64,000 nucleotides of DNA. Origin: a virus. Its lineage: Duplodnaviria > Caudoviricetes. The notes below the pieces were generated by a model that was given only the letters and a program-made list of their open reading frames with translations, did no database searches and was not told where the DNA came from. Positions 1-12,354 of this stretch are shown in pieces. The stretch lies in IMG/VR virus record IMGVR_UViG_3300008259_003073. The stretch is one strand, 5' to 3'. A program made the translations under genes and the position numbers. Each line of letters begins with the position of its first letter. Positions within the stretch are counted from its first letter, which is position 1.

Positions 1-11
1 TTTCATATTAG

Positions 12-554
12 TTAGTTTTCGTAGTATAATGCAGGCCATTCAACAATAATATGAACCCCTCCTTCATTATACGCATTTGTGTATATCTTATAAATATCGT
101 TTGGATTTTTTAATTCCCAAATTTTTGTAAATTGTAATATAGATTTGAATTCTTGTGTATAATCGTTTCTATGTTGAATGCCTGGGTCTAATGGATTGGT
201 GCTTCCTACACCTACTCTAATTATAATATTTGCATTTTTACCAGTCATGTTTTCAAACTTATCAGCATGATTTATTAACTGATTTGCCGCAGATACTAAA
301 AAATCCCATCGTGGATAGAATGATATAACGGTTTTTCCTGTAATTGCCAATCCTAAACTGATTCCCATTTGAGTTTCTTCCATAACAGGTAGCTCAATCA
401 TTTTTTCTTTTGGTACTTCCGTTAAGGTTGTACTCATTGGATTTCCAGCATAAACTATTTGTTGTCCAATGAAGATTGTATCTTCTTTTTGGGCAAGAAA
501 TGTCATTGCTTTGGATAATTCATCTTTATACGGAGATGTTTGTGGAGTACTCAT
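12..554 (-). CDS. ThDP-dependent enzyme beta subunit (PDH E1-beta/transketolase pyrimidine-binding domain only)
   Basis: IFIGQ, IELPVMEETQMG, YPRWDF, NQLINH and IIRVGVGS...QH motifs; 180 aa, lacks the transketolase C-terminal domain. Confidence 0.8.
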   Translation of the reverse strand: MSTPQTSPYKDELSKAMTFLAQKEDTIFIGQQIVYAGNPMSTTLTEVPKEKMIELPVMEETQMGISLGLAITGKTVISFYPRWDFLVSAANQLINHADKFENMTGKNANIIIRVGVGSTNPLDPGIQHRNDYTQEFKSILQFTKIWELKNPNDIYKIYTNAYNEGGVHIIVEWPALYYEN

Positions 555-555
555 A

Positions 556-1683
556 TTATTTGTTTAAATGATTAAAATTATGACCTATGCAAATCTTATC
601 GTTTACAAGGGTATGATTATTTATTTTATTTAGTTCTTCTAAAAATTCAGGAAACAATTCATGCTCTTCATTAAATACCTGTAATTCTTTTAATGTATCC
701 GAATCATAGGTTCCCCAATCTACTAATTGTCTATAATTTATGTCCAAATGAAATGTTGAATCTTTAAATATATTGGTTACTAATTCATAAAACGCAAACA
801 TTTCTTTGTAATTGTGTTTACTCACAACCATAGAAACAATAAACCATCCTATTGTATCAACAGTTGATAAAAACTTTAGATTTTTAATTAACCTATCCCA
901 ATTACCATTTAATCTCGTTTTATTTTCATAGGTATCTTTTGTAGCAGCATCTATACTAACTTCAATTGTTTTGATGTAAGGACTTGCTTTCATTTGATTC
1001 CACAATTTTTCATCTAATAAATTACCATTTGTAATTATTTGCAATTGTTCTAAATTAGGATATTTAGATATGTCAAAATTTATTAAATAATCTCTATAAA
1101 TTTTTGAATAAAATGGGTCTCCACTACCTGTTATCATAATTCTTTTTAGATTACTCGCAAAGTTATCTTCTATAGATTTTAGTAAATGTAGTTTTGCGTT
1201 ATGTTGTGGTGATTCTAAATTATCATTTGGAATTAGAGATATTCTACAAGATGGGCATTTTAAATTGCAACTTCTATCAAACCCAAATAAAATTTCTTCT
1301 GGTGAAGTTTTAAAATTTACAATATCTTCTTCTGTGTGGATATTGTATACTTCTCTAAATTCTTCAATTTTCCTAAAAAAATATGGGGTTCTATCAGTAT
1401 TTATTAGTTCATTTAATCTTGGACATATCGTATGGTCGCAATATTTATAGCTACCGTCTAAAACGGATTTACGAATATTTTGTGCCCGTACTGATGTCCA
1501 ATTTCTCATTACATCATCGGTTTCATCTACTGGAAACCAATTTTCATTTCCATTAGAATCTACTCTGATATTGTGTGGTGCCCAAGATGGGCAACACACA
1601 AATTGAGATACAGTTTGTACATCGGAATACATAAATGGCATTTCACAAACGTATTTTTTAAGTATCTCTTTTTTATCATTCAT
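556..1683 (-). CDS. Radical SAM protein with N-terminal Cys-rich (twitch/SPASM-like) segment
   Basis: CNLKCPSC cluster motif; TGSGDPF, TNG, SIDAAT; N-terminal CEMPF..CCPSW..YCDHTICP; paralog of 62239..63288. Confidence 0.85.
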   Translation of the reverse strand: MNDKKEILKKYVCEMPFMYSDVQTVSQFVCCPSWAPHNIRVDSNGNENWFPVDETDDVMRNWTSVRAQNIRKSVLDGSYKYCDHTICPRLNELINTDRTPYFFRKIEEFREVYNIHTEEDIVNFKTSPEEILFGFDRSCNLKCPSCRISLIPNDNLESPQHNAKLHLLKSIEDNFASNLKRIMITGSGDPFYSKIYRDYLINFDISKYPNLEQLQIITNGNLLDEKLWNQMKASPYIKTIEVSIDAATKDTYENKTRLNGNWDRLIKNLKFLSTVDTIGWFIVSMVVSKHNYKEMFAFYELVTNIFKDSTFHLDINYRQLVDWGTYDSDTLKELQVFNEEHELFPEFLEELNKINNHTLVNDKICIGHNFNHLNK

Positions 1684-2675
1684 TATGGTTTCGAATTTGG
1701 ATTGTATTGATGTTTGTTTGTTTTATACCACTCAATGGTTTCTTTTAGAGCTTGTTTTAAATCTCTTTTTGGTTTCCAACCCAAATCATTAATCTTTTTA
1801 GAAGATAATAATCGAATCGGAATCATTGGTGCTTTATTATTTACATACTCAATAGGATTAGTGTTTCCATCTAATTCTTTAATTGTGGCAAGTGTTTCGT
1901 TTACTGTAAATCCTTCACCATAACATACATTGAAAATATCATATGTATCATTGTTCTCTGCAACAAAGATAAAACCATCTGCCATATCTTCAACGTGCAA
2001 CAAATCTCTCACTTCTGTTCCATCCCCCCAAACAGGAATAGGATTCAATCCATCTGCTACTTTACGGATGTTAGCAGGAGTAACGTGACACTTTTCGTAA
2101 TCAAATTTATCATTTGGTCCGAATGCATTAGATGGTCTAACAATCAAACATTGCATTGGTTCGTGAATCTGATTAGAAAAGAAATCACATAACATCTCAC
2201 CATACCGTTTCATACCACCAACTGCTTTGTAAACTGGTAACATTGGAGTTGCGTGTACATTTATATCTTCAGTACAAAATTCAGTACCCATATCTGGATA
2301 TGTTGTATTTGATGAAATAAATAAGAATTTACGAACTTTATTTTTCCAACTTTGTTCCATTAAATTCGTATTCATCTCCACATTTGGAGTGACGTGAAGT
2401 AATGGATTGAATTTGGTATCCAACGCGTTTGATGTATTTGCTGCACAATGGAATACTACATCTACATCTTTACTAACCAACTCACAAAACTCTGCAGTTT
2501 GTAAATCTCCTTTAATGTGTTCTACATTTTCAGTACCTTCGAAATCGTTTCTTAAATCTCTACTAAATGAGGTTGAGCGTAGGTTTTTGTACCCCTTTTC
2601 CCAAAGTAATCTTAATAAATGTGAACCAATAAATCCACTTGCACCTGTAACTAAAATCTTGTCTGTTTTTTTCAT
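1683..2675 (-). CDS. NAD(P)-dependent nucleotide-sugar epimerase/reductase, GDP-L-fucose synthase-like SDR
   Basis: TGASGFIG Rossmann motif; RPSNAFGPND, HVTPA, WGDG..VRD.LHV.D. Confidence 0.85.
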   Translation of the reverse strand: MKKTDKILVTGASGFIGSHLLRLLWEKGYKNLRSTSFSRDLRNDFEGTENVEHIKGDLQTAEFCELVSKDVDVVFHCAANTSNALDTKFNPLLHVTPNVEMNTNLMEQSWKNKVRKFLFISSNTTYPDMGTEFCTEDINVHATPMLPVYKAVGGMKRYGEMLCDFFSNQIHEPMQCLIVRPSNAFGPNDKFDYEKCHVTPANIRKVADGLNPIPVWGDGTEVRDLLHVEDMADGFIFVAENNDTYDIFNVCYGEGFTVNETLATIKELDGNTNPIEYVNNKAPMIPIRLLSSKKINDLGWKPKRDLKQALKETIEWYKTNKHQYNPNSKP

Positions 2676-2683
2676 AACTTTTT

Positions 2684-3727
2684 TTATTTAAATATATCCC
2701 ATTTTAAAACTACATCATTTACAAATTTATGAGTTAATATGGATGATGTGTGTCCATACCAACTTCTTTCTAAATACTTTTTTTGTTCCTCAATACTCAT
2801 ACCGTTCATCTCTCTCCATAAAACTTTTGGCAGATTATCTTTCTCCAATTCGAAATTAAAATTTCTTATACTCCATTCTATTATTCCTCCGTATAAAGAT
2901 ACTAAATTTTCTTCAAAAAACCAAAAATATCTACTAAAATCTATCTTATCTGCATAAGTTTTTACATACGCATTATCAAATTCTAATTGTTTTTGTTCCC
3001 AAGTATTACAAATATCTTTATTTTCAATTATACACTCATAAACTGATTTATTGGTTGGTGTATGATAATATGGTGGGGTTCTACCTTCTCTTAAATAATT
3101 TTTAGAAAAGTTATTACTCATATTAAAAAACTTTATTTTTGTAATTCCATTTATTTCTAAAAAGTTGAGCAATAATAAAATATATTCGAACCATTCAAAA
3201 TATCTTTCATTATAAGTCATAACTTTATCCAACCATTCAAATGTAACTGGGTCTATATTAATAGGATTTTTGGTTGGATTGAAACCACCAGTTAAATGAA
3301 AATAACCATGTTCGTATTCTGTTGTTTTATCTTTACCACCTATTAAGTAATCACTGGTATGTACCCAGCTATCATTTTGTTTAATATAACTGATTGCAGG
3401 GTTTTTGTTAGATTCATATTTTTCAGGTGAAATAAAAAATGAATTTCGTGTCAGAGTTGTCCATTGAGCAACTACCGATATATCATTTGGGTTTACACCT
3501 TGCTTTAATAAATCAGAAACTTTGTAAATAATAGAACGAGCAATTGTTTTATTATCATGTGTAATAGTTCCATAATTATGTAATGTGTGTGTATCTTTTA
3601 ATTTTTCTTGCAACCAATTGGCCCAAGTCCAATTTTCTATCGGGTCTCGTTCCCATCTTCTTTCATCACCAATATTAATTCTAAAATTGTTAGTAAATGA
3701 ACAACCTGATACTACTATATGTTTCAT
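2684..3727 (-). CDS. SGNH/GDSL-like hydrolase or acyltransferase
   Basis: VVSGCSFT block I motif; C-terminal YGH. Confidence 0.55.
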   Translation of the reverse strand: MKHIVVSGCSFTNNFRINIGDERRWERDPIENWTWANWLQEKLKDTHTLHNYGTITHDNKTIARSIIYKVSDLLKQGVNPNDISVVAQWTTLTRNSFFISPEKYESNKNPAISYIKQNDSWVHTSDYLIGGKDKTTEYEHGYFHLTGGFNPTKNPINIDPVTFEWLDKVMTYNERYFEWFEYILLLLNFLEINGITKIKFFNMSNNFSKNYLREGRTPPYYHTPTNKSVYECIIENKDICNTWEQKQLEFDNAYVKTYADKIDFSRYFWFFEENLVSLYGGIIEWSIRNFNFELEKDNLPKVLWREMNGMSIEEQKKYLERSWYGHTSSILTHKFVNDVVLKWDIFK

Positions 3728-4440
3728 ATATAATTTAATGTTTGTAATTTATTTGATAGAAAATTTGCCCACATTTCATGTCCTTCTTTATTAGGATGTT
3801 CATTTTCAGTTGTTTTAGTGTATCCACCAAATGTTTCTTTTAAAAAATTTGGATAATTTGATATTTCATTATCTGAAATCATGCAGTTATCCCATCCAAA
3901 AAAGTGCAAATGTTTATAACCATTTAATTCCAAATATGCATATAGTGATTTTATATAATTTTTTGTTTTATTTATTTGATATTCTGTATCTAAAAAATAT
4001 CTTATAAATCTTTGAAAATCATTATCATATAATTCTATTAATTTTTTTCTGTCTTCATCCGTTCTATTATAATCTATATTTTCATTCATTACAAATTTAG
4101 TAAAATTCCCATAAAAATTTACATCTTTTAGTATTTTATCTGCCGATGCGTGTAATGCGTTTGGTATTGTAAAATACCAGTTCTTATTATTGTGTGTTGT
4201 AATAAGTTCTGTACGAATATAATTCGTCCATTGAATTATTAATACATCTTCTTTTTTAAATTCTTCATTTAAAATATAAAATACTTTTCTAAAAACATAA
4301 TCGTTGGATGCTCCACAATTTCCAAAGTTATAACAATCTACTTTATGTTTTTCAGAAAGTAATTTTGTATAATTTTCTATTTCACAATTTTCTAACCCCT
4401 GACCTTCTGTAAACGAGCATCCAACGGAATATAATTTCAT
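3724..4440 (-). CDS. SGNH/GDSL-like hydrolase or acyltransferase
   Basis: VGCSFT, NFGNCGASND, EHPNKEGH. Confidence 0.65.
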   Translation of the reverse strand: MKLYSVGCSFTEGQGLENCEIENYTKLLSEKHKVDCYNFGNCGASNDYVFRKVFYILNEEFKKEDVLIIQWTNYIRTELITTHNNKNWYFTIPNALHASADKILKDVNFYGNFTKFVMNENIDYNRTDEDRKKLIELYDNDFQRFIRYFLDTEYQINKTKNYIKSLYAYLELNGYKHLHFFGWDNCMISDNEISNYPNFLKETFGGYTKTTENEHPNKEGHEMWANFLSNKLQTLNYI

Positions 4441-5438
4441 TACAATCTACTTTTGTATTCTAAAATTGATTTTGTTAAACCTTCTTTCAAAGATGTTTGT
4501 GGTAAAATTCCATATTTTTTTTGCTTATCAGCTCCTAAACATCTAATTGGGTCACCATTTGTTTTGGTTTCATCCCATACTATGTTTTTAGTTTTGCCTG
4601 TAATTTCGGTATAACACTCGACAATGGTTTCAATTGTATCTTTGATACTTACTGCTTCTGCACATCCAAAGTTGATAATATCCCTAACTTCTTTTTTAAC
4701 AACATCAATCGATGCCTGTGCAACATCATCTCCAAATACAAAATCCCTTTTAGATGAACCATTACCCCAACAAACCATATCATCACCTTCTACATTGAAT
4801 AGTTTCCAAATGTTAGATGATATTACAGTTGCATCTTGTGCAAAGTTATCGTTTGTTCCGTAGATATTTGAAGGTCTGATTACAGTCCAATTATCCCAAC
4901 CATACTGAACTCTCAATGAATCCAAAGTAAGTTCTCCCATTCTTTTTGTCCAACCTGGATGCCAATCTAAACGAGATGGAGTTGATGCCCAAGTTTCTTC
5001 CTGATTCCATGTATCTTCTTCGTTCATTATATCTGCTGGTCTATAAACCCCAACCGATGAAAGATACACAAACCAATCAACTTTGGCATCAAACGATGCT
5101 TTAATCATATTGGTGTTAAACATCAACATTGGGAATAGATAATCAGCAGGACAAGTTGATGACCTTGCTGGTGAACCTTTTACTCCTGCGATATGTAATA
5201 CAATATTAATATCATCTAACTTAAATAAATTCTCACAATGTGAAAGATATGTTAAATCGGTTTTAACCAATTCCAATCTATCTGTGTATTGTGCTTTTAA
5301 GAAGTTTAAATTTTCACTAAATTTAAGGTCTACTGCATATACTTTATCAGCTCCTTCTTCTAAACATTTTCTAACGGTTGGTAATCCTACCAACCCATTT
5401 GCTCCTGTAACCAGAACGGTTTTTCCTTTTAATTCCAT
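4440..5438 (-). CDS. NAD(P)-dependent nucleotide-sugar epimerase/reductase, GDP-L-fucose synthase-like SDR
   Basis: TGANGLVG, RPSNIYG.NDNF, WGNGS.KRDFVF. Confidence 0.85.
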   Translation of the reverse strand: MELKGKTVLVTGANGLVGLPTVRKCLEEGADKVYAVDLKFSENLNFLKAQYTDRLELVKTDLTYLSHCENLFKLDDINIVLHIAGVKGSPARSSTCPADYLFPMLMFNTNMIKASFDAKVDWFVYLSSVGVYRPADIMNEEDTWNQEETWASTPSRLDWHPGWTKRMGELTLDSLRVQYGWDNWTVIRPSNIYGTNDNFAQDATVISSNIWKLFNVEGDDMVCWGNGSSKRDFVFGDDVAQASIDVVKKEVRDIINFGCAEAVSIKDTIETIVECYTEITGKTKNIVWDETKTNGDPIRCLGADKQKKYGILPQTSLKEGLTKSILEYKSRL

Positions 5439-5445
5439 TTTATTT

Positions 5446-6876
5446 TTATTTTGTTGTGTAATCTATTTTTATTTTTTCAAATATTTCATCAAAACACTCA
5501 TAGTTTTCAAATGAGTATATATGCTTTTGGTTATATAATAATATATCAATTATTGAATAATACCAATTATGTAATTCCTCAATTGGCATGTTTTTTAGTT
5601 TAATTAATTCTTTTTCTAAAAGTAACATTCGCTTTTTAGGGTCTTTTTCTAAATCATAACTTTCATCTATAAATGGTTCAAAGGTTTTAAACCCTAATCT
5701 CCGTAATTCTGCTAATGTTAAATAATCCCCAAATACTAAAAATGGTTGTAAATTTGATATTGGTTTAAATATTTTTTCTGAAAGGAATACGTTTGGTCCA
5801 AAGAATGTTTCGGTTACTAAATGAAAATATGAATTTGCGTACCATTCTTTTTTATTATTTCTAACTCCAAATGCTCTTTTTTTATCAGATGGCAATTCCT
5901 TTGTATCATCTTCATAAGGTAATAATTTCTCTAATTCAGATGTATATTTTTCAACATTTTCCTCCGTATCCTCATATACTTTATTTACAATATTTTTTAA
6001 TATATTTTTTTCTAATTTTTCAATAAATGTAAATAATCCATCTTTTAATAAATCGTATTTTAGTGCAAAATATCCCAACATAGTTCTTTGTGGTTTATTC
6101 ATTGTTCTATTTGGGGATAAAAATTTATGTTTTCTAATTTTAGTGGAATCTAAATCTTTTTCTTCAAGTAACTCACACAAATATCCCAAATTACCAATCA
6201 TTGGAAATGAATTTATTTCATCGGCATATCCTCTTATAAATAAATGCCCATTATATATTTTTATTTTACTATCAGGATATATTTCATAGTATTCCGAAAA
6301 TTTACTTCCTCCTAAAATTATGATATTAGAAGCATCTACTCCTAATTCATTTAATTGGATTTCAAATTGTTGTATATTGTGTGAATCATATAAAGGGTCA
6401 TGTATCATATTTACTAATATTTTTACTTTGCCCGATTTAATTAAATCAAATAATTCAGGTTCTATAATGTCTTTTAAAAACCAAGTATATTCTGTATCAT
6501 TTAACAAAAAACTGTTTTTATTATGTAGTGCAGAAAGTGTATCTTTTATTTCTAATGGATATACATAAATGAAATCATCATCTTTAATTTGATTAAATGA
6601 TATTATATTTTTAGGAAAATTTCTAGAAAAATAATTAAACAATTCCGAATGGTCGAATTTTATACCCTTTTGTTCTGATTTATATTGTAGTATTTCATAC
6701 CAATCTATTTTTAAATTGTTTTTTAAAACATATTGAATAAATTTAGTAATAACAGGATGCATTCCATTACCAAATGGCTTGAGTTGACCGTGGTCAATAT
6801 ACCAATCGGTATATATCATTTTAAAATTTGAACCATGTATTGCATTCATATTAATATCTGTATATTTTTTTAACAT
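5446..6876 (-). CDS. Putative glycosyltransferase with GT10 (fucosyltransferase)-like C-terminal motif
   Basis: YFHLVTETF..FLSEKIFKPI..PFLVFG..LGFKTF..DESYD resembles GT10 F.LAFENS..YITEK..PIV.G; paralogs at 21027 and 23566. Confidence 0.45.
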   Translation of the reverse strand: MLKKYTDINMNAIHGSNFKMIYTDWYIDHGQLKPFGNGMHPVITKFIQYVLKNNLKIDWYEILQYKSEQKGIKFDHSELFNYFSRNFPKNIISFNQIKDDDFIYVYPLEIKDTLSALHNKNSFLLNDTEYTWFLKDIIEPELFDLIKSGKVKILVNMIHDPLYDSHNIQQFEIQLNELGVDASNIIILGGSKFSEYYEIYPDSKIKIYNGHLFIRGYADEINSFPMIGNLGYLCELLEEKDLDSTKIRKHKFLSPNRTMNKPQRTMLGYFALKYDLLKDGLFTFIEKLEKNILKNIVNKVYEDTEENVEKYTSELEKLLPYEDDTKELPSDKKRAFGVRNNKKEWYANSYFHLVTETFFGPNVFLSEKIFKPISNLQPFLVFGDYLTLAELRRLGFKTFEPFIDESYDLEKDPKKRMLLLEKELIKLKNMPIEELHNWYYSIIDILLYNQKHIYSFENYECFDEIFEKIKIDYTTK

Positions 6877-7810
6877 TATTTCCTACATAATTGTTATCGT
6901 GAAAGAAACTTTCAAATAACAATTCATTTTTTATATAATCTTTAGTACACATTAAATTAAAAATATTATCTGAAATTTCTGGTGATAGATTATAATTTAT
7001 ATTAGCATTCAGCATATCATTTACGAAATTTTTAATTCCATCTACTATTTTTATTTTATCACTAAAGTATTTTTGATTTTCTGTATCGTTTTCGTTTATA
7101 AACTCACCATTAACAATATCGATATATGTTCCAACTTTATCGGTAAATACTGATTCAAAGAATATGATATTGTTTTTAAAATTACATTTTTCAAAATCAT
7201 AAAAACCTTTTGTATTTTTCAAATCTATATTTCCTTTATAGGTCATATACCTGCCTTTCAAATCCAAATCAAATGTTTTTTGTAAATAATATTGAGTAGT
7301 ACCTTGATAACCACTATCTACCATATATACATTTTTACATTCTCCAATCGTATTATTAATATATTTTCTATACGAATCTCTTAATACCTTTGATTTACCC
7401 AATATATCTGGAGCACATAAATTTAAATTTGGTAATCTATTTGAAGTATCAATTTGAATATCATTTTCAATAATGTAATTTATTTGAAATCTATCTTTAA
7501 GTAATTCGGATAAATTACCTTGGTATCTATGTAAATTAAATGATTCATAAACATCATATTCAGATACAAACGAAGATAGTGATGCCAATTTTCTTGATGT
7601 TTTAAAATAAACTGAATTTGGTAAATTATATTTTATTTTAAAATCTTGATATAATTGATTAAGAAAATATCCTTCTCGTGAGTTAAATAAAATCAAATCA
7701 CCGTCTTTTACTTCATCTTTTAACCAATTAAAATAATTAAATACTAATGGTCCAAAAAAGATATAACCAAGTTCTTCCAATGATTCTGGATTTTTAACAA
7801 TGTGGTCCAT
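6851..7810 (-). CDS. Putative glycan phosphoribosyltransferase (ribofuranosyltransferase gPRT-like domain)
   Basis: LGY..FGPL..WL, LFNSREGY, YFKTSR and a PRPP-binding-like VDSGYQGTTQ loop. Confidence 0.55.
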   Translation of the reverse strand: MDHIVKNPESLEELGYIFFGPLVFNYFNWLKDEVKDGDLILFNSREGYFLNQLYQDFKIKYNLPNSVYFKTSRKLASLSSFVSEYDVYESFNLHRYQGNLSELLKDRFQINYIIENDIQIDTSNRLPNLNLCAPDILGKSKVLRDSYRKYINNTIGECKNVYMVDSGYQGTTQYYLQKTFDLDLKGRYMTYKGNIDLKNTKGFYDFEKCNFKNNIIFFESVFTDKVGTYIDIVNGEFINENDTENQKYFSDKIKIVDGIKNFVNDMLNANINYNLSPEISDNIFNLMCTKDYIKNELLFESFFHDNNYVGNNVKKIYRY

Positions 7811-8241
7811 TATAAATAAACTTTAAATGAAGGTATACCAAGTGAATTCCACAAATCAATTATTTCTTGTTTATCATCAAATGCACAAAACACATCATCT
7901 TTGATAAAATCATTGTACATTTTTCGTTTTAATTCTACATCTTTAATATAATGATTTTCTTCACCTCTCATAAACAATCCATCATATTTAATCCCATATA
8001 TTTCTAACCAATCCTGTGTAGAATTAAGTATCATTCGTGGTCTACTAGTTAGTATATAAATCCCATAATCATTATATAGGTGATTTATAATATCAATCAT
8101 AGGTGCGTTTGGTTTATCTGATATTACATTTTTATAATCATATAAAACATCCCAATCGATACTACCATCAGATTTAGTTGCAAGTGCATACCTCTTTTTA
8201 TTTATTGAAAGAGTATTATCTATATCTACTATAACAATCAT
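7810..8241 (-). CDS. HAD-family phosphatase (T4 PNKP phosphatase-domain-like)
   Basis: DIDNT motif I, LTSR motif II, LFMR, K, FDD motif IV; TAATG overlap with the next gene. Confidence 0.8.
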   Translation of the reverse strand: MIVIVDIDNTLSINKKRYALATKSDGSIDWDVLYDYKNVISDKPNAPMIDIINHLYNDYGIYILTSRPRMILNSTQDWLEIYGIKYDGLFMRGEENHYIKDVELKRKMYNDFIKDDVFCAFDDKQEIIDLWNSLGIPSFKVYL

Positions 8242-9437
8242 TTTCGTAAACCTTGTTCTTTATAAGTTACTGGTATTTTAATACCAGTATTACACCCATT
8301 ACAATTATCACAAAATGTGATGTATCCAAGTTCGGTAAATCCCAAATCAAACTTAATTAAATCTTTGGGGTATACTTCTGATAAATTTACATAATCATTT
8401 TCGTTTGGTGAAAACAATTTAGTTAGAACTGCGCTTGTATTAAGGTGACAATAATAAAACTTGCCATCATTCAATCCTCTAAATGGAGCAGTGCAACTAT
8501 CAAAGTGATTTATGAGTTCTTCTTCACTCATATTATTTTTAATTCTCAAATCACCAAAATCATACCACTCGATATTATTCCTTACATAGTGATTGATATT
8601 TTTCTCTTGGTAAGTTCCTAAAACTCTATCAACTTTACTTTTTAATTTTTCTAATTTATTAGAGTAATTACTTACACTTAAAATAACATTATTATTTTTT
8701 AACACTTCTAGTATTTCTTCTTTTGGGAGGACTGTACCATTAGTGGTTATTATAAACTTATCAATCTTATCTGAATACTTTTCTAAAATGTATTCGATTA
8801 CATCTTTGATATTTGGGTGTAAAAACGGCTCTCCACCAACTAAATGGAAAATACTTACATAATCAACAAGATTAAAATATAAGTCAATATCATTTAAGAT
8901 AGTTTGAGTATCTCTGTGTTTTGGTAGTTCGTAATGTGGTATAAACATATTACAAAACGAACACGCCAAATTACATTTTTCAGTCACCAATACATCTGTT
9001 TGAAATATGTGAACCTTTTGTTTGTGTATAAATGGCCAAATAGATGCAATGTTTTTATACCAAGTATATTTTACATTTAGTTTATCTAAATATTCTTTAT
9101 AGTATTGTCTATACTCATCTGATGTGATAATTACATTTTCACCAGTTGGTTCAAAGTTATCTATATGAACTAATTTTAAATTCTCACGAGTGTTGACGAG
9201 GTTTTTTGATTGATGATAAAATGAACTAATTTCGTTTACATTCAATATAGTTGATTCATCTTTAACATCGTGGTCAACTATGTATTTTATTTTTAAAACA
9301 TTATTACCCAACAAATAATCTACACTTCTAATAAATTGGACACACTCTTTACTTGCACCGAATAGAACATATTCGGTTTCAGTATCCCATTCTTGGATAA
9401 ATTTCTCAAAATTATGTAGATTAGGATTATATTTCAT
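8238..9437 (-). CDS. Radical SAM protein with N-terminal Rossmann-like fragment and C-terminal twitch-like Cys cluster
   Basis: CNLACSFC, GGEPFLHP, TTNG; C-terminal DSC..YYCH..CDNCNGC. Confidence 0.85.
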   Translation of the reverse strand: MKYNPNLHNFEKFIQEWDTETEYVLFGASKECVQFIRSVDYLLGNNVLKIKYIVDHDVKDESTILNVNEISSFYHQSKNLVNTRENLKLVHIDNFEPTGENVIITSDEYRQYYKEYLDKLNVKYTWYKNIASIWPFIHKQKVHIFQTDVLVTEKCNLACSFCNMFIPHYELPKHRDTQTILNDIDLYFNLVDYVSIFHLVGGEPFLHPNIKDVIEYILEKYSDKIDKFIITTNGTVLPKEEILEVLKNNNVILSVSNYSNKLEKLKSKVDRVLGTYQEKNINHYVRNNIEWYDFGDLRIKNNMSEEELINHFDSCTAPFRGLNDGKFYYCHLNTSAVLTKLFSPNENDYVNLSEVYPKDLIKFDLGFTELGYITFCDNCNGCNTGIKIPVTYKEQGLRK

Positions 9438-9440
9438 ATA

Positions 9441-10070
9441 TTAAAATACTACCCATTTACCACTTCCGTAGTGCGGATACTTTGATTTATATTTGTAGTG
9501 AATTACATCGGATGGAATATCTTTCTTTTTATTCCAAGTTGCTTCCGTTGGTGTGTAAGTTGAAACATCATTATCTTCAACTATAAAATGTAAAGGTAAA
9601 TCAAAATTTCTAGCGTATTTATGAACTTCATAGAATATACCACTCTCAAAACTCATATCTCCTATAAATACCCAAACCTTTTCATCACTACCTTTGGCCT
9701 TAATTCCCATTGCTACACCCAATGCAATAGAAAGAGTTCCACCTACAATTGCGGATGAATAAAACTTCTCATCTATCTTACAAAGAGTTATAGATTTACC
9801 ATCAAGTATTTCATCGGTAATCCATTGTGGAGATATTCCTTTTAATAAAGCATGGTAGTGAGACCTCCAAGTTGAAAACACCCAATCGTTTTTAGATATT
9901 CTTTTGAATACCTCTATTAGTTGTTCTTCATTTCCGTTTGATAAGTGAATTGGTCCTCTGATTTTACCATCTTCCCAGTTTTGAACTATATCATTCTCAA
10001 ACTGAATGAGTTCTTCTGCATTCCAATTATGTTCTCTAACTATTGGATATTGTTCTAAATTTTGTATCAT
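9441..10070 (-). CDS. ThDP-dependent enzyme alpha subunit (PDH E1-alpha-like, minimal)
   Basis: GPIHLSNG, STWRSHYH, SAIVGG, ThDP-binding GDM...EDN motif. Confidence 0.8.
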   Translation of the reverse strand: MIQNLEQYPIVREHNWNAEELIQFENDIVQNWEDGKIRGPIHLSNGNEEQLIEVFKRISKNDWVFSTWRSHYHALLKGISPQWITDEILDGKSITLCKIDEKFYSSAIVGGTLSIALGVAMGIKAKGSDEKVWVFIGDMSFESGIFYEVHKYARNFDLPLHFIVEDNDVSTYTPTEATWNKKKDIPSDVIHYKYKSKYPHYGSGKWVVF

Positions 10071-10603
10071 CTATCTCTTTTTTGTAGTATTGGATTGTTT
10101 GTTGGCCATTCCATTTGATATTCAGGGTCATTCCACTTTACCACACCTTGTTCATTTGCATCCACATAACCGTCTTTGTAAAATAAGTTATAGTGAAACA
10201 TACAATCAGTTAATGCATAGTGTCCGTTTGCAAATCCTGGTGGAACTAATACCTGATTTCTTAATCTTTCCGTTATAATAAAACTTTCCCACTCCCCAAA
10301 GGTAGGACTATTTTCTCTCATATCCAAAACAACTAAATAGATATCACCTACTGCTGCTTGTACCAATTTCCAAGTCTTTTTATCCCAGTGTAATCCTCTC
10401 AATACACCTTTATAAGAACGAGAGAATCTACCATGTACTTCACATTTGCCATCGATATAATCAACTATTGGGTGCTCAATTGAATGAAATGTTGTCCATA
10501 TTTCACCTCTGTATTCTCTAAATACGGATGGTTGAAATACTGGAACCTCATGTCCAAATTTTTTTGATGGAGTAATTTGAAACTCATCCCATTTACTACT
10601 CAT
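10067..10603 (-). CDS. rfbC: dTDP-4-dehydrorhamnose 3,5-epimerase family protein
   Basis: FREYRGE, SRSYKGVLRGLH, GDIYLVVLDMR..SPTFG, VPPGFANGH, WNDP. Confidence 0.9.
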   Translation of the reverse strand: MSSKWDEFQITPSKKFGHEVPVFQPSVFREYRGEIWTTFHSIEHPIVDYIDGKCEVHGRFSRSYKGVLRGLHWDKKTWKLVQAAVGDIYLVVLDMRENSPTFGEWESFIITERLRNQVLVPPGFANGHYALTDCMFHYNLFYKDGYVDANEQGVVKWNDPEYQMEWPTNNPILQKRDR

Positions 10604-10604
10604 A

Positions 10605-11570
10605 TTATGTATTATTTGCGTATCCTAAAGGAAATCCATTTCTAAATTCTGCTCCCATTTTTGGAACAATCATTTGGTATGCGTGAATTAATTCTTCGAT
10701 ACCTCTATCTAACCCCCACTCTGGTACCCATCCAGTTTCCTCTAGCTTTGCGTTAGAAACTATGTAATCCCTCTTATCGGGGTCTTCGTAATAATCGTTG
10801 TATGATACGGCAAAATCCTTTACCTGGGATTGAATCTTTTCTAATAATTCTTGCTTTGAAAGATTGGCATTACTCAACCCTACATTAAATACTTGTCCTT
10901 TATATTTTTCGTAATTTATAATCATAAATAAAAATGTAAATGCTACATCTTGAATATGAATAAAATTTCTCTTAAAGTTTTTCTCAAATACTACAATGTA
11001 TTTATCAGTAATTGCTTTATAAACAAAATCGTTTACCAATAAATCGGTTCTCATACGAGGTGATACACCAAATACAGTTGCCAATCTAAATGTAATTGCC
11101 GATGTGGTTGCTCTTAAAAAAGTTTCAGCATCACACTTTGTTTGTCCATACACTGATATAGGTGTTAAAGGTGAATCTTCGGTGCATTCAGTTTGTCCAA
11201 CTCCAATACCATAACCACTATTTGTATTTGGATATAAAATTTTTTTATCCTTTGCAAATTTTACTATGTTACATATTTGGTCAAAATTGATTTCCCTTGC
11301 CAGCTTTGGGTCTGCTGCGCAAGCTGGGAACCCAACAATTGCAGCTAATGGAATTATTACATCAGCTTCATTACACAACTTTTCTAAAAGAGATTCATTA
11401 CGAACATCTCCATATATGAATTTGAATTTAGGATTTGAAGTATATTGTAATAATGAGGTTTGATTAAATAATAGTTTATCCAATACTACTACCTTATAGT
11501 TTTGTTCCAATAACATACCAACTAATACAGAACCCAAATAACCTGCACCACCTGTAATTAATACTTTCAT
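10605..11570 (-). CDS. NAD-dependent nucleotide-sugar epimerase/dehydratase (extended SDR)
   Basis: TGGAGYLG, LAAIVG, catalytic YGQTK, RLATVFG.SPRMR. Confidence 0.9.
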   Translation of the reverse strand: MKVLITGGAGYLGSVLVGMLLEQNYKVVVLDKLLFNQTSLLQYTSNPKFKFIYGDVRNESLLEKLCNEADVIIPLAAIVGFPACAADPKLAREINFDQICNIVKFAKDKKILYPNTNSGYGIGVGQTECTEDSPLTPISVYGQTKCDAETFLRATTSAITFRLATVFGVSPRMRTDLLVNDFVYKAITDKYIVVFEKNFKRNFIHIQDVAFTFLFMIINYEKYKGQVFNVGLSNANLSKQELLEKIQSQVKDFAVSYNDYYEDPDKRDYIVSNAKLEETGWVPEWGLDRGIEELIHAYQMIVPKMGAEFRNGFPLGYANNT

Positions 11571-11574
11571 AATT

Positions 11575-12354
11575 TTAAAAATAAATGTTCTTTTCTATGT
11601 AAAATTGTGGATAGTTTCCACTAAAACTAACATCCCATACTTTATATCTATTGTAATGGTTAAAATCACATAAAAATGCAAAATTATTTCTATATGGATA
11701 ATCGTAATTTAATTTTCGTAAATCATTAAAAACTATATGTGAATACTGTTTTTCATAATTATCAATAAAATCTTGAATTTCTTCAATTTTTAATTTTTTG
11801 TTTAATACAAACGCCATTTCAAATTCAAAATCTCCAATATGTTGATGTTCCTCTGGTCCAATCATACTACCACATCCGAACCAATAGAAAGAATTTTCGT
11901 ATTTCACTTTTTCACCATCTTCAAATTCAATAATTCCTACCAACTTTCCATTTTTATAGCATTTAATATTTCTTTCCAAAAAATGGTCACAAATCATAGC
12001 GTACTCATTGAATTCATTAGTTTCTTCTGGTAATAATCCGGTAAAAATTTGTTTTGAATACATTTCTGTTTTACCATCTATTTCTTTTGAAAACCAATAT
12101 GTAAATGCAATTGAAACAATTCCCAAATTATCTTTATAAGCAGAAATACCAGAATGCATTCCATTTCTGGCAATAGCAAATGATTCTTTATTTTGAGCTA
12201 CAGTATCAGGAAATATTTTAAACTTTAAGAATAAAGAAAAATCTTCATCCATATGTTTATCAATTCTAGATGATACGGAGTATCTACTTTCCGGCAAAAC
12301 GAAAAATATATTATCTTTGTTTACTCTTAAACTCATATTTTTATTGTTGAACAA
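11575..12354 (-). CDS. Stand-alone LamG/concanavalin A-like domain protein
   Basis: FSLFLKFK, CYKNGKLVG, WFGCG; C-terminal DF...DVSFSGN resembles the LamG inserts of the neighbouring GT7 proteins. Confidence 0.5.
   Translation of the reverse strand: MFNNKNMSLRVNKDNIFFVLPESRYSVSSRIDKHMDEDFSLFLKFKIFPDTVAQNKESFAIARNGMHSGISAYKDNLGIVSIAFTYWFSKEIDGKTEMYSKQIFTGLLPEETNEFNEYAMICDHFLERNIKCYKNGKLVGIIEFEDGEKVKYENSFYWFGCGSMIGPEEHQHIGDFEFEMAFVLNKKLKIEEIQDFIDNYEKQYSHIVFNDLRKLNYDYPYRNNFAFLCDFNHYNRYKVWDVSFSGNYPQFYIEKNIYF

What the first reader, a model, noticed from the sequence alone, without database searches (positions are those of the whole stretch)
12..11570. Minimal split ThDP enzyme among sugar epimerases: possible branched-chain nucleotide-sugar pathway
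Seen: an E1-alpha-like gene (9441..10070, 209 aa) overlaps rfbC. Its E1-beta partner (12..554, 180 aa, no C-terminal domain) lies ~9 kb away, with two Fcl-like SDRs between them. No E2/E3 or lipoyl gene is in the window. Known: YerE (yersiniose A) and the PDH-like pair AviB1/AviB2 (avilamycin eurekanate) use ThDP and pyruvate to add a C2 branch to 4-keto NDP-sugars. Inference: this is sugar C-branching, not a pyruvate dehydrogenase metabolic gene.
Basis: partly seen in the sequence, partly recalled or inferred. Interest (0 to 1): 0.72.

Follow-up and report, generated by a model that had tools for sequence, protein, structure and literature searches.

The report
Minimal thiamine enzyme in phage heptose cassette
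A large uncultured freshwater phage carries a stripped-down two-part thiamine enzyme, its halves 9 kb apart, inside a cassette that makes 4-keto heptose sugar nucleotides; it most likely adds a two-carbon branch to that sugar, a sugar type I found described in no paper searched.

Summary
An E1-alpha-like gene (9441-10070, 209 aa) overlaps an RmlC-like gene by 4 nt. An E1-beta-like gene (12-554, 180 aa, no C-terminal domain) lies 8.9 kb away, with two Fcl-like SDRs between them. No E2, E3 or lipoyl gene is in the 94-kb record.

It also missed that the neighbours are orthologues of the Campylobacter jejuni GDP-heptose pathway: a Cj1427-like C4-dehydrogenase (53% identity, Z 43.9) and a GDP-4-keto-heptose 3/5-epimerase.

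Alpha and beta are partners:
- They co-occur in 73 of 80 related phage loci, 6 nt to 9.3 kb apart.
- They are adjacent in 74 of 80 cellular loci (SAR11, Patescibacteria, DPANN and others).
- They are fused in cyanophages P-TIM68 and S-SM2.
- They pass a complex prediction.

The short alphas form their own clade beside canonical E1-alpha.

Best reading (0.55, inferred, not assayed): a minimal E1-type carboligase that puts a C2 unit, probably from pyruvate, on the C4 keto group of a GDP-heptose. It works like AviB1/AviB2-type enzymes but fails several of their membership features.

This scan has reached the same reading for this family on other genomes. What is new here is the separation of the two halves by a variable tailoring block.

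The parts
12..554 (-). Beta: ThDP Pyr-domain subunit (180 aa, P0002), no C-terminal domain
   Evidence: PF02779 24.5 bits. PDH E1-beta NCBIfam models at E 1.5e-8. BCKDH and PDH E1-beta chains in PDB. Glu59 and Gln127-His128 are invariant. Co-occurs with alpha. Complex prediction 0.81 against a best control of 0.01.
556..1683 (-). Radical SAM enzyme (375 aa), 1 nt upstream of beta
   Evidence: PF04055 38 bits. Weak N_Twi_rSAM match. Present in 13 of 80 related phage loci.
1683..2675 (-). Fcl-like SDR (330 aa), candidate keto-reductase
   Evidence: GDP-L-fucose synthase model 144 bits, below cut-off. PDB hits are GDP-fucose-synthase-named chains and epimerases.
2684..3727 (-). Unknown protein (347 aa) with an N-terminal GCSFT motif, SGNH/GDSL-like by eye
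   Evidence: No Pfam or NCBIfam hit. Sequence. Present in 42 of 80 phage loci.
3724..4440 (-). Unknown protein (238 aa) with an N-terminal GCSFT motif, SGNH/GDSL-like by eye
   Evidence: No family hit. Sequence.
4440..5438 (-). Fcl-like SDR (332 aa), candidate keto-reductase
   Evidence: GDP-L-fucose synthase model 118 bits. PDB GDP-fucose synthases at E 8e-18.
5446..6876 (-). Unknown protein (476 aa), phage-only family; weak lead to GT10-type glycosyltransferase
   Evidence: No Pfam hit. Atlas hits are viral hypotheticals at 0.97; the GT10 lead scores only 0.80. Hits in 72 of 80 phage loci, some at only 27-37% identity.
6851..7810 (-). Unknown protein (319 aa)
   Evidence: No family hit. Travels with the rSAM399 and HAD genes in 21 of 80 loci.
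7810..8241 (-). HAD-type phosphatase (143 aa)
   Evidence: PF25109 HAD_PNKP 63.9 bits.
8238..9437 (-). Radical SAM enzyme (399 aa)
   Evidence: PF04055 56.9 bits and Fer4_12.
9441..10070 (-). Alpha: ThDP PP-domain subunit (209 aa, P0001), lacks the C-terminal half of E1-alpha
   Evidence: PF00676 54.7 bits over profile positions 6-172 of 300. Human PDH E1-alpha residues 55-209 at E 4e-9. Family motifs. Separate clade.
10067..10603 (-). RmlC-like cupin: GDP-4-keto-heptose 3- or 3,5-epimerase type (178 aa, P0137)
   Evidence: PF00908 112 bits. Best PDB matches are GDP-D-glycero-4-keto-D-lyxo-heptose epimerases 8DCL, 8DCO, 7M14 and 8DB5 at E about 2e-38.
10605..11570 (-). Cj1427-like GDP-manno-heptose C4-dehydrogenase (321 aa, P0136)
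   Evidence: E 2.7e-105 to PDB 6VO6/6VO8. Model pLDDT 90.5. Z 43.9, rmsd 1.3 A, 53% identity to Cj1427; the next entry scores Z 36.8.

Best explanation
Alpha and beta are the two halves of one minimal thiamine-diphosphate enzyme. Alpha is the PP domain and beta is the Pyr domain, with the cofactor held at their interface. It belongs to the E1/transketolase superfamily.

It has lost everything a dehydrogenase complex needs: the C-terminal half of alpha, the E2-binding domain of beta, and any lipoyl partner.

It sits in a phage cassette with two other enzymes. A Cj1427-like dehydrogenase oxidises a GDP-heptose at C4. A Cj1430-like cupin then epimerises the 4-keto sugar.

Inferred mechanism:
1. 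The enzyme decarboxylates a 2-oxo acid, most likely pyruvate, to the hydroxyethyl-ThDP carbanion.
2. It adds that carbanion to the C4 carbonyl of the GDP-4-keto-heptose. This gives a 4-C-acetyl tertiary alcohol, a branched nine-carbon sugar.
3. The Fcl-like SDRs, radical SAM enzymes and SGNH-like proteins encoded between alpha and beta then tailor the product.
4. The glycosyltransferases upstream transfer it to a phage or host target.

Shown here: the identities of the neighbours, the partnership of alpha and beta, the truncations, and the distribution.

Inferred: the donor, the acceptor, the carboligation and the product.
For: (1) Partnership of alpha and beta.
- Beta is found with alpha in 73 of 80 related phage loci, 6 nt to 9.3 kb away and sometimes upstream.
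- The two are immediately adjacent in 74 of 80 cellular loci.
- They are fused in one frame in cyanophages P-TIM68 gp190 and S-SM2 198 and in metagenome proteins P0126, P0131 and P0133.
- Complex prediction: ipSAE 0.81 against a best control of 0.01. That mark was reached by 58 of 80 solved complexes and 2 of 110 mismatched pairs. The three runs agree in 100% of contacts and the partner pLDDT is at least 91.
- The predicted interface joins alpha 95-126 and 145-152 to beta 53-74, which includes Glu59.
- Solved E1 alpha/beta complexes exist, so this pass may reflect likeness to them.

(2) Not a dehydrogenase E1.
- Alpha covers only profile positions 6-172 of 300.
- It scores 87 bits against a 394-bit cut-off for PDH E1-alpha.
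- Beta has no Transketolase_C domain.
- No E2, E3 or lipoyl gene is in the record.
- Short and fused alphas form one clade (SH-aLRT 96, stem length 1.23). It lies beside, not inside, eight canonical E1-alphas taken from genomes that also hold a short alpha.

(3) The context makes 4-keto heptose.
- The SDR at 10605-11570 matches Cj1427.
- The RmlC-like gene matches GDP-4-keto-heptose epimerases.
- A Cj1427-like gene is present in 67 of 69 phage loci with enough upstream sequence.
- In cellular loci of at least 12 kb, 34 of 42 hold a keto generator. This is either Cj1427-like or a GDP-manno-heptose 4,6-dehydratase (7US5, E 1.5e-101). In the same set, 26 of 42 hold HddA-, GmhA- or GmhB-HddC-type genes.
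- Three of 52 full-flank phage loci have dehydrogenase, epimerase, alpha and beta but no Fcl-like reductase.

(4) Precedent.
- E1-type alpha/beta pairs are proposed to put a pyruvate-derived acetyl branch on keto sugars: AlmDI/DII, AviB1/B2 and Pau11/12.
- KbDH-alpha/beta has been assayed in vitro, with ketone sugar analogues as acceptors (PMC12247030, PMC4425429).

(5) Alpha is also found fused to a GT2, an FkbM methyltransferase, a B12-radical SAM enzyme and an SDR epimerase.
Against: - There is no biochemical datum for any member of the short family.
- Most loci (49 of 52) also carry Fcl-like reductases, so the C. jejuni-type oxidise, epimerise, reduce route is complete without alpha and beta.
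- Sequence and fold cannot separate a pyruvate-decarboxylating carboligase from a transketolase- or DXS-like enzyme. Foldseek hits to DXS, E1-beta and transketolase are about equal.
- I know of no described 4-C-acetyl heptose. That statement rests on my own knowledge and on searches of the held library only.
- The known sugar-branching E1 pairs are full length.
- The alpha C-terminal tail is modelled with low confidence.
Confidence: 0.55

Rival explanations
1. A miniature transketolase- or DXS-like enzyme that works on sugar phosphates. It would feed the heptose pathway with sedoheptulose 7-phosphate, or build a longer ketose phosphate, rather than act on the nucleotide sugar.
For: - The pair belongs to the same superfamily. 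The fold search hits DXS and transketolase as well as E1-beta, and alpha has weak DXS and transketolase model hits.
- In cellular loci alpha and beta often lie next to GmhA-, HddA- and HddC-type genes.
- Cyanophage fusions sit among heptose-activation genes.
Against: - The phage loci keep alpha and beta with the 4-keto generator and epimerase but carry no GmhA-, HddA- or HddC-type genes in the fetched spans.
- Alpha is coupled by a 4-nt overlap to the 4-keto-sugar epimerase.
- The best sequence matches are PDH E1-alpha models, not transketolase.
- Ordinary split transketolases occur as separate genes in the same SAR11 islands.
Confidence: 0.12
2. An E1-type decarboxylase that loads an acyl group onto a carrier, which other cassette enzymes then use for acylation. 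The carrier would be a free lipoyl domain or another thiol; the users would be enzymes such as the SGNH-like proteins.
For: - Two related phage loci (L007, L016) encode a free 75-aa lipoyl domain with the E2-type ETDKA motif inside the same cassette.
- Two SGNH-like proteins lie between alpha and beta.
- The beta Gln-His motif of E1 enzymes is kept.
Against: - The lipoyl ORF is present in only 2 of about 80 phage loci. It is absent from the window, the 94-kb record and the cellular alpha-beta loci.
- The alpha region that carries the histidine and loops used in reductive acylation of lipoate is deleted.
Confidence: 0.07
3. A plain ThDP decarboxylase acting on a keto-acid sugar or a small 2-oxo acid, with no C-C bond formed. 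One example would be removing or converting the 2-oxoglutarate or 2-hydroxyglutarate linked to the Cj1427-type ping-pong reaction.
For: - Cj1427 needs 2-oxoglutarate as oxidant (PMC10680097).
- Minimal two-subunit ThDP decarboxylases exist (sulfopyruvate decarboxylase; my own knowledge).
Against: - Alpha and beta also accompany heptose 4,6-dehydratases, which need no 2-oxo acid.
- There are no TPP_enzyme_N-type hits.
- No ulosonic-acid genes are seen in the cassette.
Confidence: 0.08
4. A captured and decayed host pyruvate or acetoin dehydrogenase E1, either acting as a central-metabolism auxiliary gene or non-functional.
For: Sources annotate relatives as 'pyruvate dehydrogenase E1 component alpha subunit'.
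Against: - Close relatives at 72-99% identity are very many and of constant length. Catalytic motifs are invariant.
- The short alphas form a separate clade.
- Genomes with the pair also hold canonical E1-alpha.
- No E2 or E3 gene is present.
Confidence: 0.02

Closest known systems
E1 alpha/beta-type (alphaKADH2) sugar acetyl-branching enzymes of actinomycete antibiotic pathways: AlmDI/DII, AviB1/AviB2, Pau11/Pau12, KbDH-alpha/beta (PMC12247030, PMC4425429, PMC4753412)
   Same: - Two-subunit E1-type ThDP enzyme with no E2 or E3.
- Encoded inside a nucleotide-sugar cluster next to enzymes that make a keto sugar.
- Ketoreductase, aminotransferase and methyltransferase genes nearby could tailor an acetyl branch.
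   Different: - Subunits are 209 and 180 aa against about 325 and 345 aa (Pau11, Pau12). Alpha lacks its C-terminal half and beta lacks the Transketolase_C domain.
- Found in phages and in surface-glycan islands of SAR11, Patescibacteria, DPANN and others, not in antibiotic clusters.
- The acceptor is predicted to be a GDP-4-keto-heptose.
- Kinship by tree was not tested, and there is no assay.
Campylobacter jejuni capsular GDP-heptose modification pathway: Cj1427 C4-dehydrogenase, Cj1430 C3/C5-epimerase, Cj1428 C4-reductase (PMC10680097)
   Same: - The phage encodes a Cj1427 orthologue (53% identity, Z 43.9).
- It encodes an epimerase of the GDP-4-keto-heptose type.
- It encodes Fcl-like SDRs of the class to which the C4-reductases belong.
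   Different: C. jejuni has no ThDP enzyme in this pathway. Here and in many uncultured microbes the ThDP pair is inserted directly after the epimerase, which implies an extra step on the 4-keto intermediate.
YerE-type branching enzymes (YerE, ErwE, MygE; acetolactate-synthase/decarboxylase superfamily) of yersiniose-type LPS sugars (PMC9306805)
   Same: Proposed chemistry: a ThDP-bound acyl anion from a 2-oxo acid adds to the C4 keto group of a nucleotide sugar for a cell-surface glycan.
   Different: - Unrelated domain order: a single chain of about 560 aa with TPP_enzyme_N, M and C domains.
- CDP-3,6-dideoxy-4-keto-hexose is the acceptor.
- An ALS-like gene of this kind occurs as a separate gene in some SAR11 islands next to the short pair.
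Pyruvate, branched-chain 2-oxoacid and acetoin dehydrogenase E1 heterotetramers (PDB 1NI4, 1W85, 1DTW)
   Same: - Closest by sequence: E 4e-9 for alpha and 2e-5 for beta.
- ThDP-Mg motif, activating Glu and the Gln-His motif are kept.
- The alpha/beta interface is predicted.
   Different: About 40% of each subunit is missing. There is no E2-binding domain, and the pair forms a separate clade.

Membership tests
Heterotetrameric 2-oxoacid dehydrogenase E1 (PDH, BCKDH, AcoAB; alphaKADH2) | PP domain with ThDP-Mg motif GDG-X(25-30)-N | tested here: met
   GDMS...EDN at alpha 137-167. G137 and N167 are invariant in 42 family members. The motif aligns to the human E1-alpha GDGA...ENN.
Heterotetrameric 2-oxoacid dehydrogenase E1 (PDH, BCKDH, AcoAB; alphaKADH2) | Pyr domain with cofactor-activating glutamate and the Gln-His motif | tested here: met
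   Beta E59, Q127 and H128 are invariant in 24 sequences. The region aligns to BCKDH E1-beta residues 33-123.
Heterotetrameric 2-oxoacid dehydrogenase E1 (PDH, BCKDH, AcoAB; alphaKADH2) | Alpha and beta associate | tested here: met
   Fusions and co-occurrence. Complex prediction 0.81 against a best control of 0.01; 58 of 80 solved complexes and 2 of 110 mismatched pairs reach the mark. The pass may come from likeness to solved E1s.
Heterotetrameric 2-oxoacid dehydrogenase E1 (PDH, BCKDH, AcoAB; alphaKADH2) | Full-length alpha (about 320-370 aa) with the C-terminal half carrying the TYRxxGHSxSD loop | tested here: not met
   Alpha is 209 aa and covers profile positions 6-172 of 300. An alignment with 6 canonical E1-alphas shows the deletion. 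A short tail, YxYxxxYPHxGxG, replaces the missing part.
Heterotetrameric 2-oxoacid dehydrogenase E1 (PDH, BCKDH, AcoAB; alphaKADH2) | Beta C-terminal Transketolase_C domain (E2 binding) | tested here: not met
   Beta is 180 aa and matches PF02779 only. The family length is 167-190 aa.
Heterotetrameric 2-oxoacid dehydrogenase E1 (PDH, BCKDH, AcoAB; alphaKADH2) | E2 and E3 partners, lipoyl acceptor | tested here: not met
   No PF00364, PF00198 or PF07992 match in the 94-kb record. The record is about half of the genome, and a host complex cannot be excluded.
Heterotetrameric 2-oxoacid dehydrogenase E1 (PDH, BCKDH, AcoAB; alphaKADH2) | Scores above curated equivalog cut-offs; nests among canonical E1-alpha | tested here: not met
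   87 bits against a 394-bit cut-off. The short alphas form a separate clade, SH-aLRT 96.
Sugar acetyl-branching alphaKADH2 pairs (AviB1/B2, Pau11/12, AlmDI/DII, KbDH) | E1-type pair encoded in a nucleotide-sugar cluster with a keto-sugar generator | tested here: met
   Cj1427-like and epimerase genes lie directly upstream of alpha. A keto generator is present in 34 of 42 cellular loci.
Sugar acetyl-branching alphaKADH2 pairs (AviB1/B2, Pau11/12, AlmDI/DII, KbDH) | Full-length E1 subunits (Pau11 325 aa, Pau12 345 aa) | tested here: not met
   209 and 180 aa here. Sizes of Pau11 and Pau12 are from PMC4425429.
Sugar acetyl-branching alphaKADH2 pairs (AviB1/B2, Pau11/12, AlmDI/DII, KbDH) | Common descent with these enzymes | not tested
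   No tool gave me their sequences, so the tree holds only canonical E1-alphas and TK/DXS outgroups.
Sugar acetyl-branching alphaKADH2 pairs (AviB1/B2, Pau11/12, AlmDI/DII, KbDH) | Pyruvate-dependent addition of a C2 unit to a keto sugar | not testable with these tools
   Needs an enzyme assay.
C. jejuni-type GDP-heptose modification pathway | Cj1427-type C4-dehydrogenase | tested here: met
   E 2.7e-105. Z 43.9, rmsd 1.3 A over 300 residues, 53% identity.
C. jejuni-type GDP-heptose modification pathway | GDP-4-keto-heptose C3 or C3/C5 epimerase | tested here: met
   The best PDB matches are these enzymes, at E about 2e-38, against 3e-23 for dTDP-type RmlC. The RGLH, Lys and Tyr positions are present by eye.
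C. jejuni-type GDP-heptose modification pathway | Cj1428-type C4-reductase | tested here: inconclusive
   Two Fcl-like SDRs give only moderate matches, E 2e-27 to 8e-18, to GDP-fucose-synthase-named chains.
C. jejuni-type GDP-heptose modification pathway | Own supply of GDP-manno-heptose (GmhA, HddA, GmhB, HddC) | tested here: not met
   Absent from the fetched spans of 80 phage loci. Present in many cellular loci.

The most novel reading that the evidence does not exclude
The short alpha/beta pair is the smallest working E1-type carboligase. It would make a so far undescribed 4-C-acetyl (or hydroxyethyl) heptose, a branched nine-carbon sugar. That sugar would be used on cell or virion surfaces by SAR11, candidate-phyla bacteria, DPANN archaea, cyanophages and this freshwater phage group. 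In this phage lineage the two subunit genes bracket a swappable block of tailoring genes that diversifies the sugar.
Probability: 0.4. Interest if true: 0.75.

Novelty: new variant of a known kind. Interest (0 to 1): 0.6.

Why it matters
If the reading holds, three things follow.

1. ThDP-dependent sugar branching by E1-type enzymes has so far been tied to actinomycete antibiotics, about 120 clusters by PMC12247030. It would also be a common trait of surface glycans in some of the most abundant aquatic microbes and their phages.
2. A ThDP carboligase would be shown to need only a 209-aa PP domain and a 180-aa Pyr domain. That is useful for enzymology and biocatalysis of tertiary alcohols.
3. 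It predicts a new class of branched higher sugars on phage or host surfaces, relevant to phage-host recognition.

Cultured carriers make it directly testable: cyanophages S-SM2 and P-TIM68 with the fused form, and HIMB-type SAR11 strains.

Tried and rejected
- Megablast of 20 kb of the window against 50,697 phage records found no match.
A 9-row alignment worked.
- Papers PMC7509852 and PMC7500870 are not held, and a text search for '6VO6' gave nothing relevant. The identity of 6VO6/6VO8 as Cj1427 was settled by the entry titles in the fold search.
- The AlphaFold model of a natural fused homologue (P0131, pLDDT 76.6, linker 154-219 disordered) hit DXS, E1-beta and transketolase about equally with Foldseek. 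The fold therefore does not tell the reaction type.
- The Atlas search for the 476-aa unknown gave only viral hypotheticals and a weak GT10 lead at 0.80.
- Lipoyl-carrier idea: the free lipoyl ORF occurs in only 2 phage loci.
- Expression: contigs from two RNA libraries of one estuary study lie on parts of the block. These include 1-419 (beta), 7961-9437, and 10039-10314 (the alpha/RmlC junction), at 90-99% likeness. They are contigs of relatives, and DNA carry-over is not excluded, so they do not show transcription.
- A tree against AviB, Pau, Alm and KbDH sequences could not be made, because no tool supplied those sequences.
- The argument that no reductase is needed rests on only 3 of 52 loci, so I give it little weight.

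Full report
**What the DNA is.** The window is bases 23265-87264 of a 94,186-bp IMG/VR virus record, which CheckV rates about 50% complete. It has about 29% G+C, and every ORF of 100 aa or more that looks real lies on the minus strand. It encodes phage parts:
- T4-type portal and large terminase just outside the window;
- a baseplate wedge protein;
- a 1746-aa fibre with an S74 chaperone;
- a primase, an SbcCD-like nuclease and T7-type endonuclease I.

Near-identical DNA occurs in lake and freshwater metagenomes of at least 11 studies. So the finding lies in a large T4-like freshwater phage, not in a bacterial O-antigen locus.

**The observation.** All stated features are present.
- Alpha (9441-10070, 209 aa) matches E1_dh over only the first 172 of 300 profile positions. 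It matches human PDH E1-alpha residues 55-209.
- Alpha's start overlaps the stop of the RmlC-like gene by 4 nt.
- Beta (12-554, 180 aa) matches only the transketolase-type Pyr domain, weakly. It matches BCKDH and PDH E1-beta chains over their first 120-140 residues.
- Alpha keeps the ThDP-Mg motif. Beta keeps the activating Glu59 and the Gln127-His128 motif.
- Two Fcl-like SDRs lie between the two genes.
- No lipoyl, E2 or E3 domain is found in the whole record.

**Are the two genes partners although 8.9 kb apart?** Yes, on four lines of evidence.
- In 80 related phage loci, beta is found in 73. Of the other 7, 2 are cut short after alpha and 5 have 10 kb downstream without beta in the fetched span. 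The distance ranges from 6 nt to 9.3 kb, and in 4 loci beta lies upstream.
- In 80 loci from cellular genomes, the two genes are immediately adjacent in 74. These come from many Pelagibacteraceae single-cell genomes and strain HIMB1412, and from Patescibacteria, Woese- and Pacearchaeota, Chloroflexota, Omnitrophota and others.
- In cyanophages P-TIM68 and S-SM2 they are one ORF in one frame. Fused forms of 381-406 aa also occur in metagenomes.
- A complex prediction scored 0.81 against 0.01 for the best of three controls. That mark was reached by 58 of 80 solved complexes and 2 of 110 mismatched pairs. The runs agree in 100% of contacts and the partner pLDDT is at least 91. The interface joins alpha's cofactor loop region to beta's Glu59 helix. 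Solved E1 heterotetramers exist, so this pass shows likeness rather than independent proof.

The adjacent arrangement is therefore the common one. This phage group has a variable block of tailoring genes inserted between the two subunit genes.

**A distinct family.**
- HMMER against 1.84 billion representatives gave 117 clusters at E of 1e-30 or better, mostly 195-220 aa.
- Close relatives at 80-99% identity are very numerous in metagenomes.
- Family motifs are PIHLSGGNE, DWVFSTWRSHYHALLKG, SSAIVGG, GDM...EDN and a C-terminal YxYxxxYPHxGxGxxVxF.
- Against canonical E1-alpha, the family lacks the GGSMH loop and everything after the ThDP motif.
- Five genomes that hold a short alpha also hold canonical E1-alphas of 321-351 aa.
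- In a tree, short and fused forms are one clade (SH-aLRT 96, stem 1.23) beside the canonical clade. Fusion arose at least twice.
- AviB- and Pau-type sequences could not be included.

**What surrounds it.**
- The SDR upstream of the RmlC-like gene (10605-11570) matches PDB 6VO6/6VO8 at E 2.7e-105.
- Its model (pLDDT 90.5) aligns to those entries at Z 43.9, rmsd 1.3 A and 53% identity, seven Z units above all other SDRs. Their titles name Cj1427 of Campylobacter jejuni.
- The RmlC-like protein's best solved relatives are GDP-D-glycero-4-keto-D-lyxo-heptose 3- and 3,5-epimerases, at E about 2e-38, against 3e-23 for dTDP-type RmlC.
- A Cj1427-like gene is present in 67 of 69 phage loci with enough upstream sequence. 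The epimerase ends within 60 nt of alpha in 45 of 74 loci.
- In cellular loci of at least 12 kb, 34 of 42 carry a keto generator. This is either Cj1427-like or a GDP-manno-heptose 4,6-dehydratase (7US5, E 1.5e-101).
- In the same set, 26 of 42 carry HddA-, GmhA- or GmhB-HddC-type genes. DegT aminotransferases (14 of 42) and B12-radical SAM enzymes (16 of 42) are also frequent.
- The cyanophage fusions sit among phosphoheptose isomerase, heptose kinase and adenylyltransferase genes, next to a Zn-alcohol dehydrogenase.
- Alpha is also found fused to a GT2, an FkbM methyltransferase, a B12-radical SAM enzyme and an SDR epimerase.

**Mechanism.**
- Shown: a catalytically intact minimal ThDP enzyme of E1 type without dehydrogenase-complex parts, tied to enzymes that make and epimerise GDP-4-keto-heptoses.
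- Inferred: it decarboxylates a 2-oxo acid, probably pyruvate, and adds the C2 carbanion to the C4 carbonyl. This gives a 4-C-acetyl heptose, which the genes between alpha and beta tailor further. Those genes are two Fcl-like SDRs, two radical SAM enzymes, a HAD phosphatase, two SGNH-like proteins and three unknowns. The upstream glycosyltransferases then use the product.
- Precedent: E1-type alpha/beta pairs are held to install pyruvate-derived acetyl branches on keto sugars in aldgamycin, avilamycin, paulomycin and kibdelomycin pathways. In vitro data exist for KbDH-alpha/beta with ketone sugar analogues, and the branch is later reduced, methylated or transaminated (PMC12247030, PMC4425429, PMC4753412). 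That review ties such enzymes mainly to antibiotic clusters and names viruses as unexplored.
- Weak point: 49 of 52 full-flank phage loci also have Fcl-like reductases, so the ordinary oxidise, epimerise, reduce route could run without the ThDP enzyme. Only 3 loci lack them.
- Fold comparison cannot tell a carboligase from a transketolase- or DXS-like enzyme.
- I put the branching reading at 0.55.

**Rivals.**
- A mini-transketolase feeding the heptose pathway (0.12).
- An acyl-loading E1 with a carrier (0.07), suggested by a free lipoyl domain in two related phages.
- A plain decarboxylase (0.08).
- A decayed PDH gene (0.02).

**Comparison and novelty.** It works like the alphaKADH2 sugar-branching pairs but fails tested membership features of E1 enzymes: full-length alpha, the beta C-terminal domain, curated cut-offs, and nesting with canonical E1. 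It is best called a new variant of a known kind.

Earlier follow-ups of this scan on other genomes reached the same reading for adjacent pairs. I read those notes after my own analysis and they are not independent evidence. What this window adds:
- the phage setting;
- the direct identification of the Cj1427- and Cj1430-type neighbours;
- the separation of the two subunit genes by a variable block of up to 9.3 kb.

Noticed in passing
L007:5069-5296 and L016:6084-6308 (related phage contigs): A free-standing 75-aa lipoyl domain with the E2-type motif EIETDKA lies inside the glycan cassette, between a GT7-LamG gene and the N-terminal-twitch radical SAM gene. It occurs in only 2 of about 80 related phage loci and not in this window.
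   Followed up: partly
L171:10001-15388 (SAR11, same sequence as strain HIMB1412 locus L106); also L115, L124, L160: Three kinds of ThDP enzyme lie side by side in one surface-glycan island: the short alpha/beta pair, an acetolactate-synthase/YerE-like protein of 559 aa, and a split transketolase (275 + 299 aa). All three classes have been proposed to branch keto sugars.
   Followed up: partly
window 2684-3727 and 3724-4440: Two proteins without family hits begin with MK..V.GCSFT, which resembles block I of SGNH/GDSL hydrolases or acyltransferases. They may add or remove acyl groups on the glycan.
   Followed up: no
proteins P0123, P0124, P0125, P0127, P0132: The short alpha domain occurs fused to a GT2 glycosyltransferase, an FkbM methyltransferase, a B12-binding radical SAM enzyme and an SDR epimerase. 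One copy of 553 aa also matches a LAGLIDADG-type family (PF14528), which suggests an intein or homing-endonuclease insertion.
   Followed up: no
L091 (VHCC01000006.1) and L092 (CAIMCP010000084.1): Contigs filed under a Pelagibacterales MAG and a Saccharibacteria MAG carry the phage-type cassette in the same gene order as the window, at 74-94% protein identity. They are probably phage contigs binned into bacterial MAGs.
   Followed up: partly
L172:8774-9979 (Minisyncoccia), also one further cellular locus: A malic enzyme gene lies head to head with the alpha gene. Malic enzyme yields pyruvate and NAD(P)H, which would suit a pyruvate-using ThDP enzyme and its reductases. It was seen in only 2 of 80 loci.
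   Followed up: partly
L006:12146-12271 (just before window base 1); L007:16626-16763; L010:19885-20013; L173:11180-11305: A small ORF of 41-45 aa directly follows beta in this phage and in three relatives. In this phage the product is hydrophobic then lysine-rich: MKNLPIISFFVKWYQAYQTKKK... Its function is unknown.
   Followed up: no
window 1-12000, RNA-library runs X19 and X20: Contigs from two estuary metatranscriptome libraries of one study lie on parts of the cassette, including beta and the alpha/RmlC junction, at 90-99% likeness. This may mean that relatives are transcribed in nature, but DNA carry-over is not excluded.
   Followed up: partly
related phage loci L011-L090: Alpha is more conserved (72-84% identity to the window) than beta (56-96%). 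The block between them falls into a few recurring sizes: about 0, 1.9, 4.4, 5.5, 6-7 and 7.5-9.3 kb. This suggests exchange of whole tailoring cassettes.
   Followed up: partly
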